From Planctomycetota bacterium (GTDB lineage Bacteria > Planctomycetota > Planctomycetia > JALXBF01): a DNA stretch of 53,544 nt. The stretch spans positions 1 to 53,544 of the forward strand of contig JALXBF010000114.1 of assembly GCA_026991575.1 (NCBI GenBank). Direction: 5' to 3'. Below, piece after piece: positions 24,001 through 33,000 of this stretch (position 1 is its first letter; each line of letters starts with the position of its first letter). Position numbers: made by a program.

Positions 24001-27000
24001 GGGGTTATTTCACCATTGACCAGCACCCCGGCAAGATGGTGACGTTGCCGGTTGCCGCGGCACTGTTTCGGCGGGGCGATGTGCGACCGGCTCGGCAGCG
24101 CGTCCTGGTGGGCTTGTCCGAAAGGCAAGAGCGTGCGTTGCTTGTTGACGCCCGCCCCTGGCAGTTGGTGCACGCCGGCTTGCTTGGCGTCGAGCCGCAG
24201 GCCGTCTTACGGCACCGGGTCCAACTGGATCTGACGGCCGCGGGCGAGCGGGCAGGACAGCTCAGCGGAGCGGCACGCGGCCGGACGGTGCAGGCTGATA
24301 CGGGTGAGCTGCTCTGGGATCGTCGCCGGCCTGACCGTGGCTATGTCCTGGTCAAGACGCGGCGAACGAAGGCAATCATCGGGTTCGCTCCGAAAGCGGT
24401 GGACCTGGACGGCGTACGGATCGAGGCGGTCAGGAGCATGCAGCGCGGCTGGGCTGTCCTTGCGCTGTCGGCCCTGGATGGTGAGCTACCTGATGGCCGT
24501 GGGCCGCGGGGCCCGTTCCGGGCGCTGTTGGTTGCGGTCGGGTTGGTGCAAAACAGGGGGATGCGCTGGGTGGTCGACCCGCGGCATGACCCGCTGCATG
24601 CGAGCCTGGGGCGGCACTGGGGTGGGCCGCCGACATTGGTGGAGGGCATTGAAGGAAGGCTGTCCCTGCCGGCGGCAGCGGGCGCCGGTCGGTATCGCGT
24701 GTACGCCCTCGATGAGCGGGGTGGTTGCCGCGACGCGTTGCCCGTTGACCGGACCGGCGACCGGGTGACTTTTGAGATTGGGCCGGAGCACCGCACGTTA
24801 TGGTACTTGGTCGAGTTGCAGTAGCGGCGAAACGAGCCGGTGACAGCTACCGTGGGTTCTTGGCGATGTGGCCTTGTTGCTGCGGCGCACGCGGTGTGGG
24901 CGCTCTACCCCGGTAGCTACCTCCGGTTCCCCTGACGCGGTCATCGGCCCGGAATGGGGTTTTCCGGAGCAGTAGTGTTGTCGTTGCGGAGCAAGTCCAG
25001 GTAGGCCACGCCAATCCGCGGCTCCTGGGCCAGTCCGAGCTGCTGCAGCAGGAGTTCGGTTTCCGCACGCGCCTGGGCTACCGCGTCCGGTCCGTCGCCG
25101 ATGGCCGTTTCCAGTTCGATGAACTGCCCCAGACCGTCGACGCGATCTAAGTGGATTCGCGTCCGACGGATAAGGTAGACAGTGCGTGTCTTGCGCACGA
25201 TGCCTTCCAGCGGCAGGCAGCAGAGCAGAACGCGCTTGAGCTGTTCGGGGGTTGCGGTCCGATAACTGTGATACTCAGAGATACGGGCCGCGGGCGTGTC
25301 AGGTCGATGGTACGCGATTAGCTCGGCGGTTGCGGGTGGTTGGATACGGAGTTTCAGGCGGCCCGCCGGTACGGCGAAGAAGTAATCCTCCTGGTGCAGA
25401 TCGGCGGCACGGTGCGCCAGTGAGTCGAGCGTCTGTTGCACGGTCTGGAACTGCTCGTGGCTGAGGCGGATTTTGACTTCGTTGTTGCGTGGCACTGCAG
25501 CACTCCTGAGTGAGTGTCCTGGCCGAAGCGCCCGTTACGGCGCGCCGCGCGCACGGGTTCCCGCACGGTTCCGTCCTGGACACGGGCGGCCGCAGCGAGT
25601 ATCGTACCGAGAATGCGGTGGGCTGTCAGAGCGTGGTCAGCCGGCGCGCTGCAGAGAACGTCGGCTGTGCTTCTTCGACGCGCGCTGTGCAAGCCGGTGT
25701 GCGGAAGCGAGCCGCGCCGGGATCCCGGACGCAGGCGGCCATCGTGGCCGAGTGCTTGCGGGGGGGCCTGGCGCATGGCCGTGGCGGCGCGTCGGTGGCC
25801 GCAACCGAAGCAGGGGCAATGACCGACGGTCGGCAGGCGCGGACTTGGGCTCGCTGCCCCGCGTGCGGGCTGTTGGAGCGCGAGCGTCCGTTCCTGGTTG
25901 GCACAAAGCTTGCTGTCAGCCCATGTGAGCTTATGTCGGCGGGTTGGGTGTGAGCCTGGTGGGCTGTGCCCCAAGGGAGGCGCCATGGCAGTAACGCGGC
26001 GAGAATTCCTCGGAAGCACGTTGGCTGCGACGGCGGCGGCGACGGCATCAACCAGTCTTCTGGTCAGTTGTGCCCAACAGCAAGAAGACCTCAAACGCAT
26101 CGACCTCTCCGGAGTGACGTGGAAGAAGGGGGTGTGCCGTTTCTGCGGTACTGGCTGCGGCGTGTTAGTCGGGGTCAAGGACAATCGCGTCGTGGCCGTG
26201 CAGGGCGATCCGGAGAATCCCGTCAACCGTGGCTTGCTATGTGTGAAAGGGTACCATGCGCCGCTGATCCTCTACGGCGCGGACCGGCTCACAAAGCCGT
26301 TGATCCGGCGCAACGGCAAGTTGGAACCGGCTAGCTGGGACGAGGCGCTTGACCTGATCGCAACCCGTTGGAAGGAGATCATCGAGAAGCACGGCCCGGA
26401 TGCCGTGGCGTTCTATGGGTCGGGCCAGTGGACGATTGAAGAGGGGTATGCGGCGCTGAAGCTGATGAAAGCGTGCATTGGCACGAACAACATCGAGGCC
26501 AATGCGCGGCTGTGTATGGCCAGTGCCGTGATGGGGTTCATGACCACGTTCGGCTCGGATGAGCCGATGGGCTGTTACGACGATTTCGAGAAGGCCGACG
26601 TGTTCGTCTGCTGGGGGAACAACTCCGCGGAAATGCACCCCGTGTTGTTTTCACGCATGACCATGGCGCGCGAAACGCGGCAGGGGGTTCGCCTGGTCGA
26701 CATCGCGCCGCGCCGAACACGCACCAGCGAAGTGGCCGACCTGTTCGTACAGATCCGGCCGCACACCGACTTGGCACTGGCTAACGGAATAGCCTATCTG
26801 CTGGTCCATCGCGGTTATATCGACCGCGAGTTTATCGAGAAGCACGTCGTGTTCAAGCGAGGCAAGACAGACATCGGGTACGGGACGGAGGACGGGTTCA
26901 AGTTCAAGGATCAGCCAGAGCGGATCACGTTCGACGAGTACGTGGCCTTCCTCGATGACTACAAGCCGCAGCGGGTTGCTGAGCTGTGTGGTGTGAAGGT

Positions 27001-30000: not shown

Positions 30001-33000
30001 TTCGTGTTCCACATCGGAGTGCTGCCCACGATCATGACGATCCTGCTCATCTGTCACTTCACGTTGATCCGGCTCCATGGCGTGACACCGTACCGGTTTC
30101 CCGACGAGCCCGAGGGTAAGACGTATCCGTTTTTCCCGGACCACGTGCTGACGGAGCTGGCCATTGGCGTGTTCCTCATGTTTCTGCTCACGTGCCTGGC
30201 CTGCATTTTCCCGGCCGAGCTTGGCCCGATCGCCAATCCGCTCGTGACTCCGGAGCACATCAAGCCGGAGTGGTACTTCTATTTCACGTTCCGGCTGTTG
30301 AAGCTCATGGGACTGACCTGGGCGGTTCTCACGTTGGGCTTCATGCTGTTCATCACACTGCTCTGGCCGTTCATCGACGCTGCGATCCGAAAGTACTGGC
30401 CCGAAAGCGAGCTGAGCGTGTACATCGGCATCGCTGCGGTCGTGCTGCTGTGCGTCATGACCGTGTGGGAGGCGATGGAAGGGACCGTGTTCTGAGGACG
30501 CCGCGGTCTGTGGTGGATGCCGCTCCGAGAAAACCGTCACCCAGCGGGCTGAGTGGAGGGTCCGAATGAGCCTGCGTGTGAAGCAACTGATCGTCGCCGT
30601 GCTGAGCCTCTTCTTCCTGGCCTCGCTGCTGATTGTAGCGTGGATCGAAGGTGGGAAACAGCGAGCAGGAGGCAAGCCGCGCATCGTGGTAACGGGGGTT
30701 AACGAGCAGTGCGTCAGTTGTCACGAGGACAAGACGCCTGTGATCGTGGCCCAGTGGAAAGACAGCGTGCATGCCCAGAAGGCAATAGGCTGCTATGAAT
30801 GTCACCAGGCTGAGGAGGGCGAACCCGACGCCTTCCGGCACGAAGGCCACATCATCGCGACGATCGTGTCTCCGAAAGACTGCGCCCGGTGCCATGAGAA
30901 GGAGGTGGCCGAGTTCACGGCCAGCCACCACGCACGGGGAGCCCAGTTCGTCGGGTCGTTGGACAACATCTTGGGCGAGATCGTCGAGGGGCCACTTGCT
31001 GCGCAGAACGGCTGCTGGCAGTGCCATGGCTCGCCAGTTCGTTTCCTACGCGACGATGCAGGCAACATCCTGAAGTATGAAGACGGTCGTCTGAAGTTCG
31101 ACCCTGCAACCTGGCCCAACACGGGCATCGGCCGGATCAACCCGGACGGGTCCAACGGCTCGTGCACCGCTTGCCACTCACGCCACGTGTTCTCCAAGGC
31201 GATGGCGCGTCAGCCGGAGGTGTGCGGCAAGTGCCATATGGGGCCGGATCACCCGCAAATCGAAATCTACTACGAATCCAAGCACGGTATCGCGTTCAAG
31301 ACCCGCATCGACGAGATGAACCTCGATTCGGACAGCTGGGTGCTGGGCAAGGACTACACGGCAGCGCCGACCTGTGCTACCTGCCACATGAGTGCGACAC
31401 GAAACCAGCCGGTCACTCACGACGTCGGCGCCCGAATCAGCTGGACGCTGCGACCGGTGGTGTCCAAGAAGCTGGAGAACTGGGAACAGAAACGGGAGGC
31501 TATGAAGGACGTCTGCAACCACTGCCACTCGCCCAGCTTTGTCAATGCGTTCTATGACCAGTTCGACGCAAGCATCGAGCTGTACAACAAGAAATTCGCC
31601 ATCCCGGCGCAGAAGATCATGGACGCGCTCCGCAAGAAGGGCAAGATCACGCCGACACCATTTGATGACGAGATCGAGTGGACGTTCTTCCTGCTCTGGC
31701 ACCACGAAGGCCGTCGGGCTCGTATGGGCGTCTCGATGCAGGGCCCGGACTATACCCAGTGGCACGGCTTCTTCGAGCTGGCCCACCGCTTCTACTTCGA
31801 GTTGATCCCGCAGGCCAAGGAACTGGCCGAGGGGGACGAGGAGTTGATGCAGCTGATCGCGGACATCGAGAACGCCCCAGAGCACCGGTGGAAGAAGGGC
31901 GGTCTGGACAAGAAGACGATCCAGCAGATCCAGAAGTTCTACCAGGAGCGCTACGGCAAGTAGCTGCTGGCGCACGGAACCACACCCGACCCCACGCCCT
32001 GCTGTGGCCGCGCAGTGGGGCGTTTTCTTGTGTGTCCGCCGACGCTCGGCCTATAATGCGGCGAAACTCACCGAAACACACATGCCCCGATCCCCATGAG
32101 CCAGAGAGAATTGCCGAGGGACGAGGCGCGCGAGGAACTGGTCGACGAGGCAGAACTTGCCCAATTGATGGAAGCCGGTCCGGCAGCGCCTGTTGAGAAG
32201 CTGCGCGACGCTCTCGGGCAGGCCCCTGCCGGCCGCCGCTACGACGGAGCCCTGAAGTTCGAATTCACCGTCAAGCTCCGTTCCCAGGGGAAGCGGCTCG
32301 ACCAGTACCTCGCCGAACGTCTCGGCCAGTACAGCCGCTCGCTGATTCAGAAGGTGATCAAGGCCGGCGCGGTGGAAGTCAACGGCCGAGCCGTGCGCCC
32401 CAGCTACGCCATCAAGAAAGGCGACCACATCAGGCTGTGGTTGCCGGAGATTATCGAGCAGTTGCCCGTGCCGGAGAACATCCCGCTGGACATCCTCTAT
32501 GAGGACGAGCTCTTCGTCGTGGTCAACAAGCCGCCCGGCATGGTCGTGCATCCCGCGAAGGGACACTGGCGCGGCACGCTCGTGAACGCACTCCGGTACC
32601 ACTTCGAGAATCTCAGCGGCGTCTCCGGTCAGCACCGACCCGGCATCATCCACCGACTCGACCGGGATACCAGCGGCGTGATCGTCGTCGCCAAGGACGA
32701 CCTAGCACATGTGGACCTGGCGCTACAGTTCGAGCACCGCAAGGTGTACAAGGAGTACCACGTGCTGGTCTGCGGTGAGCCGGACCGCGACAGCGACTAT
32801 ATTGAGCAGCCGCTGGGCCCGCATCCCACGCACCGTGAAAAGATGGCCATCCGTCGCGTCGAGGACGGCGGCAAGCCGGCCAGGACCTTCTATGAGGTGA
32901 TCGAACGCTTCGATGGCTTTGCGTACGTGAAAGCCGTGCCGCACACCGGGCGAACCCACCAGATTCGCGTTCACCTGGCTCACATCGGCTGCCCCGTTCT

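What a model noticed while it worked through the whole genome (the two positions that open the first line are those of the whole stretch)
25985..31963. Nap nitrate reductase operon wired to its own Rieske/cytochrome b module and an octahaem HAO-family cytochrome
Five co-directional, tightly spaced genes form one operon: TAT-exported NapA (g02188), a membrane-anchored tetrahaem cytochrome made of two NapB-like repeats (g02189), a Rieske protein (g02190), a fused cytochrome b6/subunit-IV-type protein (g02191) and an octahaem HAO-family cytochrome (g02192). The usual Nap quinol dehydrogenases (NapC, NapGH) are not in the operon. I propose that a dedicated Rieske/cyt b complex feeds quinol electrons to periplasmic nitrate reduction and to an octahaem nitrite/hydroxylamine reductase, i.e. 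a nitrate-to-ammonium (or NO) chain built as one module.
Evidence so far: Gene order and gaps (genes.tsv: 25985-28318, 28375-28974, 28971-29453, 29455-30495, 30566-31963, all +). g02188: 50% id to NapA of Dechloromonas, E 1e-294 (swissprot.tsv), twin-arginine N-terminus. g02189: 4 CxxCH, one TM helix, two NapB-like repeats; Pfam NapB 45 bits (cut 25.1), 3 stretches; no PDB sequence match. g02190 Rieske, g02191 Cytochrome_B+Cytochrom_B_C (pfam.tsv). g02192: 8 CxxCH; best solved relative 4qo5 'hypothetical multiheme protein' E 1e-46, then HAO 4fas/1fgj and Kuenenia HAO-like proteins. Conservation: sister genus G401 has Rieske-cyt b-octahaem in the same order at 76-85% id (its contig starts inside the operon); in 4 other Planctomycetia genera the octahaem homologue ( [...]
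(Added by a program. Inside this text positions count along the whole contig: contig position 1 is position 1 of the stretch shown here. "Call 12" and the like, gene names such as g00115 and contig names such as C1 are that model's own, and its searches are not shown. The text may have been shortened before it was handed on; [...] marks where a part breaks off. The agent that wrote the report below was given it as the finding of a first reader that could run no searches.)

Follow-up and report, generated by a model that had tools for sequence, protein, structure and literature searches.

The report
Nap nitrate reductase with Rieske/cytochrome b and octahaem
A five-gene operon joins a periplasmic nitrate reductase to its own Rieske/cytochrome b quinol oxidase and an octahaem nitrite-reductase-like cytochrome, a compact version of a nitrate-to-ammonium module already proposed from other genomes but never tested at the bench.

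Summary
Five co-directional genes at 25985-31963 encode NapA, a tandem-NapB tetrahaem protein, a Rieske protein, a fused cytochrome b6/subunit IV and an 8-haem HAO/IhOCC-family cytochrome. A strong hairpin follows the last stop.

No NapD, NapH, NrfA, NirK or NarG was found above cut-off in the 97.8%-complete genome. The only NapC/NirT-family gene sits beside a different multihaem gene.

- Rieske-cyt b-octahaem is a widespread three-gene unit (19 of 32 loci sampled across phyla).
- The same five genes recur in Acidobacteriota and Myxococcota in the window's order, and in three other Planctomycetota in a permuted order.
- In 29 of 29 other planctomycete loci NapA-tetrahaem is followed mostly by NapG/NapH-like genes, not by Rieske/cyt b.
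- The Rieske-linked NapAs form their own clade.

The idea is not new in kind. Caldithrix abyssi has a published nap-Rieske/cyt b-epsilonHao locus, Nitrospira a Rieske/cyt b-octahaem unit, and anammox R/b-3 an HAO-like subunit. Campylobacter Nap runs through Qcr experimentally.

This is a minimal variant: no NapGH, NapM or NapD, and a lipoprotein tandem NapB. The product (ammonium or NO) and any expression remain untested.

The parts
25985..28318 (+). napA: Tat-exported periplasmic nitrate reductase catalytic subunit (777 aa)
   Evidence: NCBIfam NF010055 scores 1053 bits (cut-off 904) and TIGR01706 1029 bits (cut-off 931). Pfam finds Molybdop_Fe4S4, Molybdopterin and Molydop_binding. The N-terminus MAVTRREFLG carries a twin arginine. 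It belongs to a NapA clade of 6 rows, all Rieske-linked.
28375..28974 (+). Tetrahaem cytochrome c made of two NapB-like repeats, with a probable lipoprotein signal (..MVMVGC)
   Evidence: It has 4 CxxCH and scores 45.1 bits against Pfam NapB (cut-off 25.1). The two halves are 49% identical, E 5e-16. The weak PDB matches are NapB chains 1ogy_B and 3ml1_B, E about 0.01. A lipobox-like Cys is present in 6 of 6 short-type homologues. The gene lies directly after NapA in 29 of 29 planctomycete loci.
28971..29453 (+). Rieske [2Fe-2S] protein with a Tat-like RRGF signal anchor; its start overlaps the tetrahaem stop by 4 nt
   Evidence: PF00355 scores 48 bits. The motifs CPHLGC and CPCH are present. 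No Ser or Tyr follows CPCH in 18 of 18 aligned homologues, which by recall is the low-potential menaquinol type.
29455..30495 (+). Cytochrome b6 fused to a subunit-IV-like domain (346 aa)
   Evidence: PF00033 scores 181 bits and PF00032 38 bits. The four haem His (85, 99, 186, 201) and PEWY are invariant in 27 of 27 sequences. Cys34 in WWWCLGG, the b6 haem-ci position by recall, occurs in 21 of 27.
30566..31963 (+). Octahaem HAO/IhOCC-family cytochrome c with an N-terminal membrane helix (465 aa)
   Evidence: It has 8 CxxCH and scores 103 bits against PF13447. A family profile hits IhOCC 4qo5 at 1.6e-61 and NeHAO at 1.6e-27. Asp228-His229 are invariant, and Arg296 aligns with NeHAO Tyr334. The model has a helix at residues 3-30.
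31994..32023 (+). Terminator-like hairpin (13-pair stem, 8 G-C pairs) with a T-rich tail, 30 nt after the octahaem stop
   Evidence: It is the only long stem among 5 terminator-like hits, and that total is what shuffles give (mean 4.8). Its position is suggestive; the count is not.

Best explanation
The operon encodes a self-contained periplasmic chain running from menaquinol to nitrate and nitrite.

- A b6-type Rieske/cytochrome b complex oxidises quinol.
- Its c-type subunit is the membrane-anchored octahaem HAO/IhOCC-family enzyme. This enzyme takes electrons from the Rieske cluster and reduces nitrite, most likely to ammonium.
- The lipid-anchored tandem-NapB tetrahaem carries electrons from this complex to NapA, which reduces nitrate to nitrite.
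- Because the quinol oxidase is a Rieske/cyt b complex and not NapC/NrfH, both reductions could be coupled to proton-motive force.

Shown here: gene content, motifs, absences in the genome and conserved linkage. Inferred: complex formation, direction of electron flow, the product and energy coupling.
For: 1. Gene content and motifs are intact.

2. The usual partners are missing from the own genome, which is 97.8% complete.
- NapD gave no hit.
- NapH reached only 20 bits against a cut-off of 213.
- NrfA stayed below cut-off. NirK gave nothing. NirS gave only propeller hits of about 23 bits. NarG reached only 56 bits against a cut-off of 1084.
- The single NapC/NirT-family gene is followed 4 nt later by another, distant HAO-family gene.

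3. Rieske-cyt b-octahaem is a conserved unit. It was found in 19 of 32 GTDB loci holding an octahaem relative (18 with Rieske visible) and in 8 of 29 planctomycete loci. Its neighbours are otherwise unrelated.

4. The same five genes are linked in seven genomes of three phyla.
- L028 and L031 (Acidobacteriota) and L033 (Myxococcota) have the window's order.
- G089, G215 and G119 (Planctomycetota) have the order Rieske-cytb-octahaem-NapA-tetrahaem.

5. NapA-tetrahaem is a fixed pair, seen in 29 of 29 loci. In those loci 0 of 29 have Rieske/cyt b downstream. Of 28 ORFs taken directly after the tetrahaem gene (none qualified in L079, whose Rieske/cyt b lies upstream of NapA), 11 are NapG-like, 2 are NapH-like and 4 are small ferredoxins.

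6. All six NapAs of the Rieske-linked type form one clade (support 97/92), separate from 23 NapG-type planctomycete NapAs (97/98).

7. Complex prediction of cyt b + Rieske + octahaem scored 0.68 against a best control of 0.47. That mark was reached by 116 of 157 solved complexes and 2 of 215 mismatched pairs. Partner pLDDT was at least 83 and run agreement at least 0%. In the best run the octahaem's N-terminal helix lay against cyt b residues 94-106 and 319-343.

8. Precedents in print.
- Caldithrix abyssi: a nap-Rieske/cyt b-epsilonHao locus with the same proposal (passages).
- Nitrospira: Rieske/cyt b and the octahaem are co-expressed, on nitrite but not on ammonium (passages).
- C. jejuni: Nap depends on Qcr (abstract).
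- IhOCC is described as an octahaem nitrite reductase without P460 (passages).
Against: - No RNA or protein data exist for this operon.
- The complex prediction passes by only 0.01 over the required margin. Its three runs do not share contacts. One control, with cyt b replaced, still scored 0.47.
- An AlphaFold3 attempt on the anammox counterpart Kuste4574 is reported to have failed.
- The product is not settled. The cross-link-free HAOr makes NO. The presence or absence of a cross-linking Tyr could not be aligned here.
- NapH-like polyferredoxin genes scoring below the cut-off exist elsewhere in related genomes, so other electron routes cannot be excluded.
- Two further Rieske/cyt b modules in the genome (C170, C37) could also serve Nap.
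- Haem potentials in this family are often low (recalled), so electron transfer from Rieske to the octahaem may be uphill.
Confidence: 0.55

Rival explanations
1. The wiring is the same, but the octahaem reduces nitrite only to nitric oxide, as anammox HAOr does. The module would then be Nap plus an NO-forming nitrite reductase, that is, truncated denitrification or NO signalling.
For: Cross-link-free HAOr from Kuenenia reduces nitrite to NO (abstract). Kuste4574, the HAO-like subunit of anammox R/b-3, is proposed to do the same. The genome has no NirS or NirK above cut-off. It does have an 812-aa COX1-family ORF on C102 that could be an NO reductase, though NCBIfam gave it no name.
Against: The nearest solved relative by a wide margin is IhOCC (1.6e-61, against 3.7e-24 for 6t5e and 1.4e-26 for Kustc0458, 6h5l). 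IhOCC is described as a nitrite reductase. EpsilonHao enzymes reduce nitrite and hydroxylamine (passage). The Nitrospira orthologue-like octahaem is regulated as an ammonium-supplying enzyme. An invariant Arg296 replaces NeHAO Tyr334; what that does is unknown.
Confidence: 0.15
2. The octahaem is only the electron-transfer subunit of the Rieske/cyt b complex, standing in for cytochrome c1 or f. NapA would be the sole catalytic end point, and nitrite would be exported or assimilated by the cytoplasmic NirA-like enzymes.
For: Planctomycete bc complexes commonly carry large multihaem c subunits. C170 has Rieske, cyt b, subunit IV and a 1239-aa 8-haem protein. The genome encodes two NirA/Sir-family sirohaem proteins, scoring 506 and 366 bits against a cut-off of 594.
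Against: The catalytic-pocket Asp-His pair and many residues around it are invariant in 32 of 32 family members. The three-gene unit occurs without any Nap in at least 11 loci that have 3 kb or more of upstream sequence. There the octahaem would have no terminal enzyme to feed. Other HAO-family genes lie directly upstream of napA in 7 of 29 planctomycete loci without Rieske/cyt b, which argues for an enzymatic link to nitrate reduction.
Confidence: 0.12
3. The module serves nitrogen assimilation or nitrite detoxification, not energy conservation, as proposed for the Nitrospira Rieske/cyt b-octahaem unit.
For: The Nitrospira unit is expressed on nitrite and not when ammonium is supplied (passages). 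No assimilatory NasA-type nitrate reductase was found here. The only NapA paralogue is a formate dehydrogenase, TIGR01591 at 768 bits against a cut-off of 666. Nap may therefore be the only route from nitrate.
Against: Two cytoplasmic NirA-like genes already exist. Building the chain on a Rieske/cyt b complex is what makes Nap electrogenic in C. jejuni. The two roles are not exclusive.
Confidence: 0.15

Closest known systems
Caldithrix abyssi nap locus Cabys_2564-2557 plus epsilonHao Cabys_2556 (Kublanov et al. 2017, PMC5317091; passages read)
   Same: NapA, a tetrahaem cytochrome, Rieske, cytochrome b and an HAO-family octahaem lie in one co-directional cluster, with no NapB, NapC or NrfA. 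The authors already propose Rieske/cyt b feeding a tetrahaem, which feeds NapA and/or the octahaem.
   Different: Caldithrix also keeps NapG and NapH inside the locus, and its tetrahaem is NapM. Here there is no NapG, NapH or NapD, and the tetrahaem is a tandem NapB with a lipobox.
Nitrospira moscoviensis / N. japonica Rieske/cyt b + octahaem cytochrome c ('ONR/OCC') unit (PMC6606698, PMC6311188; passages read)
   Same: It is a three-gene unit of Rieske, cyt b and octahaem. The genes are co-expressed, and the unit is proposed to be a quinol-linked nitrite reductase making ammonium. Two of 25 strong Nitrospirota loci here show the same three genes, with the octahaem 50-51% identical to the window's.
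   Different: It has no Nap genes and is read as assimilatory. The cyt b is only 38-39% identical. The names of those two genomes are not known to me, so equating them with the published Nitrospira genes is an inference.
Anammox Rieske/cyt b complex R/b-3, Kuste4569-4574 (PMC12954380, PMC12485887; passages read)
   Same: It is a b6f-like Rieske/cyt b complex that carries an HAO-like octahaem (Kuste4574). All subunits are reported to co-migrate.
   Different: The anammox complex has further multihaem subunits and an NAD(P) oxidoreductase, split b6 and subunit IV, and a proposed NO product. It is not linked to Nap.
Campylobacter jejuni Nap fed by QcrABC (Garg, Taylor, Kelly 2018, PMC6195509; abstract read)
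   Same: Periplasmic nitrate reduction is driven through a menaquinol:cytochrome c reductase and not NapC, which gives an electrogenic H+/2e- of 2.
   Different: The genes are unlinked. Qcr has its own dihaem c subunit and also serves oxygen respiration. Here the Rieske/cyt b genes sit inside the nap operon and the c subunit is an enzyme-like octahaem.
IhOCC, octahaem cytochrome c of Ignicoccus hospitalis (PDB 4qo5)
   Same: It is the best solved relative (profile E 1.6e-61; Foldseek rank 1, E 6.3e-13). It belongs to the HAO clade, lacks P460 and is described as a nitrite reductase.
   Different: It is archaeal and 521 aa long, and shares only about 25% identity over the structure alignment. 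TM-scores are low (0.27-0.30) because the model is poor in the haem core.

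Membership tests
NapA (periplasmic nitrate reductase catalytic subunit) | Scores above the curated equivalog cut-off | tested here: met
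   NF010055 scores 1053.2 bits (cut-off 904) and TIGR01706 1028.7 bits (cut-off 930.55).
NapA (periplasmic nitrate reductase catalytic subunit) | Twin-arginine signal, N-terminal 4Fe-4S Cys motif and Mo-ligand Cys | tested here: met
   The sequence shows RREFL at residues 5-9, CRFCGTGC...C, and ARLCMAS. Pfam Molybdop_Fe4S4 scores 69.8 bits. The identity of the ligand Cys is recalled, not tested.
Canonical Nap system (NapAB with NapC or NapGH, plus NapD) | A dedicated quinol dehydrogenase (NapC or NapGH) and the chaperone NapD, in the operon or elsewhere in the genome | tested here: not met
   None is in the operon. NapD gave no hit at E 0.1. NapH reached 20 bits against a cut-off of 213. The one NapC/NirT-family gene pairs with another multihaem gene on C109. 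The genome is 97.8% complete, so absence is not proven.
NapB (dihaem subunit) | A single dihaem domain of about 130-150 aa that matches the NapB models | tested here: inconclusive
   Pfam NapB scores 45.1 bits (cut-off 25.1) but no single stretch passes. The NCBIfam NapB equivalog scores 17 bits against a cut-off of 230. The protein is a tandem of two NapB-like units. It is NapB-like, not a canonical NapB.
Rieske/cytochrome b complexes (b6f-like branch) | Rieske CxH...CxxH cluster motifs, four haem-b His, and PEWY at the Qo site | tested here: met
   The CPHLGC and CPCH motifs are present. His85, 99, 186, 201 and PEWY are invariant in 27 of 27 sequences.
Rieske/cytochrome b complexes (b6f-like branch) | Conserved Cys for covalent haem ci (position recalled from cytochrome b6) | tested here: inconclusive
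   Cys34 is present in the window and in 21 of 27 homologues. Six have Ala or Gly there. Haem ci binding cannot be tested with these tools.
HAO family of octahaem cytochromes c | Eight CxxCH motifs, a match to the family model, and the distal Asp-His pair | tested here: met
   There are 8 CxxCH. PF13447 scores 103.3 bits (cut-off 21.9). D228-H229 align with NeHAO D267-H268 and are invariant in 32 of 32 sequences.
Oxidative HAO/HDH (P460 enzymes) | A Tyr that cross-links to the catalytic haem of the neighbouring subunit | tested here: inconclusive
   HMMER aligns NeHAO only up to chain residue 405 (query 363), which falls short of Tyr467 (recalled numbering). Invariant Tyr residues exist at positions 410, 459 and 463. 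Closer kinship to the cross-link-free IhOCC argues against a cross-link.
NrfA / ONR nitrite reductases | A CxxCK active-site haem motif and a match to the Cytochrom_C552 model | tested here: not met
   PF02335 scores 15.6 bits against a cut-off of 24.1. There is no CxxCK; all eight motifs are CxxCH.

The most novel reading that the evidence does not exclude
The five proteins form one membrane supercomplex. In it a Rieske/cyt b dimer has an octahaem nitrite reductase as its cytochrome c subunit, and a lipid-anchored double-NapB arm holds NapA. Menaquinol would then drive the whole eight-electron reduction of nitrate to ammonium through a Q cycle. The underlying Rieske/cyt b-octahaem unit, present in many phyla, would be a major nitrite-ammonifying enzyme. 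The one survey of ammonifiers read here screened only nrfA and onr and used IhOCC only as a false-positive control, so it would not count this enzyme.
Probability: 0.3. Interest if true: 0.75.

Novelty: new variant of a known kind. Interest (0 to 1): 0.45.

Why it matters
Periplasmic nitrate and nitrite reduction is usually taken to run through quinol dehydrogenases that conserve no energy. A Rieske/cyt b complex built into the operon would make both steps electrogenic.

The Rieske/cyt b-octahaem unit behind it is common. It appeared in 19 of 32 loci sampled across phyla, and octahaem relatives were found in 75 of 401 Planctomycetota and 60 of 201 Nitrospirota genomes. No member has been characterised biochemically in the papers read. 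The genome survey of ammonifiers read here screened only nrfA and onr.

This cassette is the smallest version seen here: three to five genes and no NAD(P) module. That makes it a practical model for the debated anammox and Nitrospira complexes.

Tried and rejected
- RNA evidence: no RNA holder was listed for the operon.
- Tyr cross-link: neither single-sequence nor profile HMMER alignments reach the relevant part of NeHAO. No tool gave residue-level structure alignments.
- The AlphaFold2 monomer has mean pLDDT 70.7, with residues 203-278 below 50. Foldseek ranks IhOCC and then the HAOs first, but with TM-scores of only 0.2-0.3. This adds little beyond the sequence evidence.
- NapH as a discriminator: all five genomes tested gave only hits below the cut-off, away from nap. 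These were four carriers of the Rieske-linked cassette and one NapG-type control. The test says nothing either way.
- The idea that only Rieske-linked octahaems carry the N-terminal anchor was dropped. All 19 triad-linked loci match from residue 1, but 5 of 13 unlinked loci also match from residue 10 or earlier, and several unlinked planctomycete ones do too.
- C152, the only NapA paralogue, was considered as an assimilatory nitrate reductase and rejected. It is a formate dehydrogenase alpha subunit next to NuoF-like genes.
- The C102 COX1-family ORF (812 aa) could not be named as a quinol-dependent NO reductase.
- Promoter scan: 2 hits against 1.2 expected, which is not informative.
- Literature: Koch et al. 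2015 (PNAS) is not held. The phrase search 'epsilon hao' + Rieske found nothing although the Caldithrix paper holds both terms, so that blank is an artefact of word matching.
- Searches for a description in print of this exact five-gene cassette found only the precedents named above. The search terms were NapA/Rieske/cytochrome b/octaheme/Planctomycetes; Rieske/cytochrome b/hydroxylamine oxidoreductase/gene cluster/Acidobacteria; Rieske/octaheme/nitrite/operon; and Planctomycet/hydroxylamine oxidoreductase/napA/DNRA. Supplements were not read.

Full report
**What is there**

Five + strand ORFs occupy 25985-31963 and translate cleanly.

- NapA passes NCBI's equivalog cut-off (1053 bits against 904) and starts with a twin-arginine signal.
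- The 199-aa cytochrome has four CxxCH. It matches Pfam NapB (45 bits against 25) but not the NapB equivalog (17 against 230). Its two halves are 49% identical (E 5e-16), so it is an internal duplication of a NapB-like dihaem unit.
- Its hydrophobic N-terminus ends in ..MVMVGC. A Cys in lipobox position is present in all six short-type homologues I looked at: the window, L028, L031, L033, L075 and L079. I therefore read it as a lipoprotein rather than a helix-anchored protein.
- The Rieske protein has CPHLGC and CPCH motifs and an RRGF signal anchor.
- The cytochrome b is a b6 + subunit IV fusion. In 27 of 27 homologues from such clusters the four haem histidines and PEWY are invariant. Cys34 (WWWCLGG), which by recall is the haem-ci position of b6, occurs in 21 of 27.
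- None of 18 aligned Rieske proteins has the Ser and Tyr after CPCH that raise the potential in ubiquinol and plastoquinol complexes (recalled knowledge). This fits menaquinol.
- The 465-aa octahaem has eight CxxCH, matches PF13447 (103 bits) and has a predicted N-terminal helix at residues 3-30.
- Gene spacing is 56 nt, a 4-nt overlap, 1 nt and 70 nt.
- The flanks are unrelated genes. A 13-pair hairpin with a T tail lies 30 nt after the last stop.

**The rest of the genome**

The assembly is 97.8% complete.

- Family searches found no NapD, no NapH above cut-off (20 bits against 213) and no NrfA above cut-off.
- They found no NirK, only weak propeller hits to the NirS model and no NarG (56 bits against 1084).
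- The only NapA paralogue is a formate dehydrogenase.
- The single NapC/NirT-family gene (C109, 187 aa, NrfH/TorC-like) is followed 4 nt later by a 443-aa protein with seven CxxCH. That protein is a distant HAO-family paralogue, 21% identical and retaining the GPDH motif. This gene therefore has its own partner.
- Two further Rieske/cyt b modules exist. C170 lies next to a haem-copper oxidase and has a 1239-aa 8-haem subunit. C37 has cyt b fused to a dihaem c.
- Two NirA/Sir-family sirohaem genes are present, both below the equivalog cut-off.

**Comparative evidence**

The octahaem family is very large. Of 8000 candidates scored, 7998 had E <= 0.001, and the best 120 are 60% or more identical, from several phyla.

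A scan of GTDB species representatives returned 32 loci.
- In 19 of the 32, a cytochrome b 54-84% identical to the window's lies directly upstream of the octahaem. A Rieske gene precedes it in the 18 where the contig reaches that far.
- Three of them also have NapA and the tetrahaem upstream, in the window's order: L028, L031 (whose contig is cut inside napA) and L033. These are from Acidobacteriota and Myxococcota.
- Eleven triad loci have 3 kb or more of upstream sequence and no NapA there. Their neighbours are unrelated to each other. Rieske-cyt b-octahaem is thus a stand-alone unit to which NapA-tetrahaem is sometimes joined.

In the window's own phylum:
- The tetrahaem gene was found in 63 of 401 sampled genomes.
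- In 29 of 29 loci returned it lies directly downstream of a NapA homologue. None of the 29 has Rieske/cyt b in the 1.5 kb downstream.
- I took the ORF directly after the tetrahaem gene in 28 loci; it often overlaps by 4 nt, as in the window. In 11 it is a Tat-type NapG-like ferredoxin, in 2 NapH-like, in 4 a small ferredoxin, in 1 an FAD enzyme and in 10 of no known family. All NapG and NapH scores are below the equivalog cut-offs.
- Octahaem relatives occur in 75 of 401 genomes.
- Of 29 loci, 8 have the triad, and 9 have napA directly downstream of the octahaem, 7 of those without Rieske/cyt b in view.
- By coordinates, 14 genomes have an octahaem relative within about 4.5 kb upstream of the tetrahaem gene on the same strand.
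- Fetching longer stretches showed the complete permuted cluster Rieske-cytb-octahaem-NapA-tetrahaem in G089, G215 and G119. G119 was missed, so those counts are lower bounds.

A maximum-likelihood tree was built from the C-terminal ~315 residues of NapA. It had 30 rows. L061, L073 and L080 were left out as too short; L086 and G089 had no usable segment.
- It splits into a clade of 6 (support 97/92) and a clade of 23 (97/98).
- All six members of the small clade are Rieske-linked: the window, L028, L031, L033, G215 and G119.
- The window's NapA groups with the Acidobacteriota and Myxococcota sequences (91/93), not with the other Planctomycetota.
- This suggests the cassette moves between phyla as a unit. 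The tree is rooted only by a long outgroup branch, so no direction is claimed.

**The octahaem**

A family profile hits IhOCC (4qo5) at 1.6e-61, far ahead of Nitrosomonas HAO (1.6e-27) and the anammox enzymes.

The Asp-His pair aligned with NeHAO Asp267-His268 is invariant in the family (D228-H229). NeHAO Tyr334 aligns with an invariant Arg296. That these NeHAO residues line the distal pocket is recalled, not tested.

The cross-linking tyrosine of oxidative HAOs lies beyond the alignable region, so that defining feature is undecided. Kinship with IhOCC, which lacks P460, makes a reductive enzyme more likely.

**Binding test**

Folding cyt b, Rieske and octahaem together, each with its own alignment, gave a median score of 0.68 against a best control of 0.47. 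The mark was reached by 116 of 157 solved complexes and 2 of 215 mismatched pairs. The partner's pLDDT was at least 83. The three runs agree in at least 0% of their contacts.

In the best run the octahaem's N-terminal helix packs against cyt b residues 94-106 and 319-343. The margin is only just met, the runs disagree, and one control still scored 0.47. I count this as weak support.

**What is known**

- The Caldithrix abyssi genome paper describes a nap locus that contains Rieske and cytochrome b genes with an adjacent epsilonHao. It proposes the same electron paths.
- Nitrospira papers describe an octahaem cytochrome c beside a Rieske/cyt b pair. The genes are co-expressed and are expressed on nitrite but not with ammonium. 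Koch 2015 and Ushiki 2018 are cited there and were not read.
- Two of 25 strong Nitrospirota loci here show that arrangement, with 50-51% identity to the window's octahaem.
- Nitrospina, Kuenenia and Methylomirabilis are reported to share a bc-like operon with an octahaem.
- Anammox R/b-3 contains the HAO-like Kuste4574, and its subunits are reported to co-migrate.
- In C. jejuni, Nap depends on Qcr experimentally.

The kind of system is therefore known from genome annotation and, in part, from expression and genetics. In the papers read, no enzyme of this Rieske-linked octahaem type has been characterised.

**Verdict**

- The recurrence of the same five genes in two gene orders and three phyla.
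- NapG/NapH-like genes following the tetrahaem gene in relatives, where Rieske/cyt b follows it here.
- The separate NapA clade.
- The tandem-NapB lipoprotein.

The product, complex formation, energy coupling and expression all remain to be shown.

Noticed in passing
G000 contig C109:36312-38210 (L007:1313-3211): A NrfH/NapC-family tetrahaem gene is followed 4 nt later by a 443-aa protein with seven CxxCH. That protein is a distant HAO-family paralogue (21% identical to the window's octahaem) and keeps the GPDH motif. The genome thus has a second HAO-like enzyme with a different kind of quinol dehydrogenase.
   Followed up: partly
L064, L068, L071, L073, L076 (ORF directly after the tetrahaem gene): Five planctomycete nap loci have a ~100-aa ORF overlapping the tetrahaem stop by 4 nt. 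Its conserved start reads ..APLLQAxLGPEDRA.., and it has no NCBIfam match. It may be an unrecognised Nap accessory protein.
   Followed up: no
L059-L087 versus the window, L028, L031, L033, L075, L079: The tandem-NapB tetrahaem comes in two forms. A short form (about 180-200 aa) with a lipobox goes with Rieske/cyt b-linked clusters. A longer form with about 100 extra N-terminal residues and no lipobox in view goes with NapG-type clusters.
   Followed up: partly
L029:3861-5168 and L053:12067-13521: An Alginate_exp-family outer-membrane channel gene lies next to the Rieske-cyt b-octahaem unit in two unrelated genomes. In L029 a Crp/Fnr-type regulator is there too. This may be a dedicated porin and regulator.
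   Followed up: no
G000 contigs C170:14986-21816 and C37:4925-7242: The genome has two more Rieske/cyt b modules. C170 has split b6 and subunit IV and a 1239-aa 8-haem subunit, next to a haem-copper oxidase. C37 has cyt b fused to a dihaem c.
   Followed up: partly
window 40545-41978 (+): A 477-aa secreted protein shows weak MauG/di-haem-peroxidase-like matches (42 bits, far below cut-off).
   Followed up: no
window 14593-18498 (+): A 1301-aa ORF has a long coiled-coil-like N-terminal part and a P-loop motif (GRTGSGKS) in its C-terminal half. It was not scanned against any library.
   Followed up: no
G000 contig C102 (L024:523-2961): An 812-aa ORF matches the COX1 model (204 bits) but has no NCBIfam name. 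It may be a quinol-dependent NO reductase or a related enzyme.
   Followed up: partly
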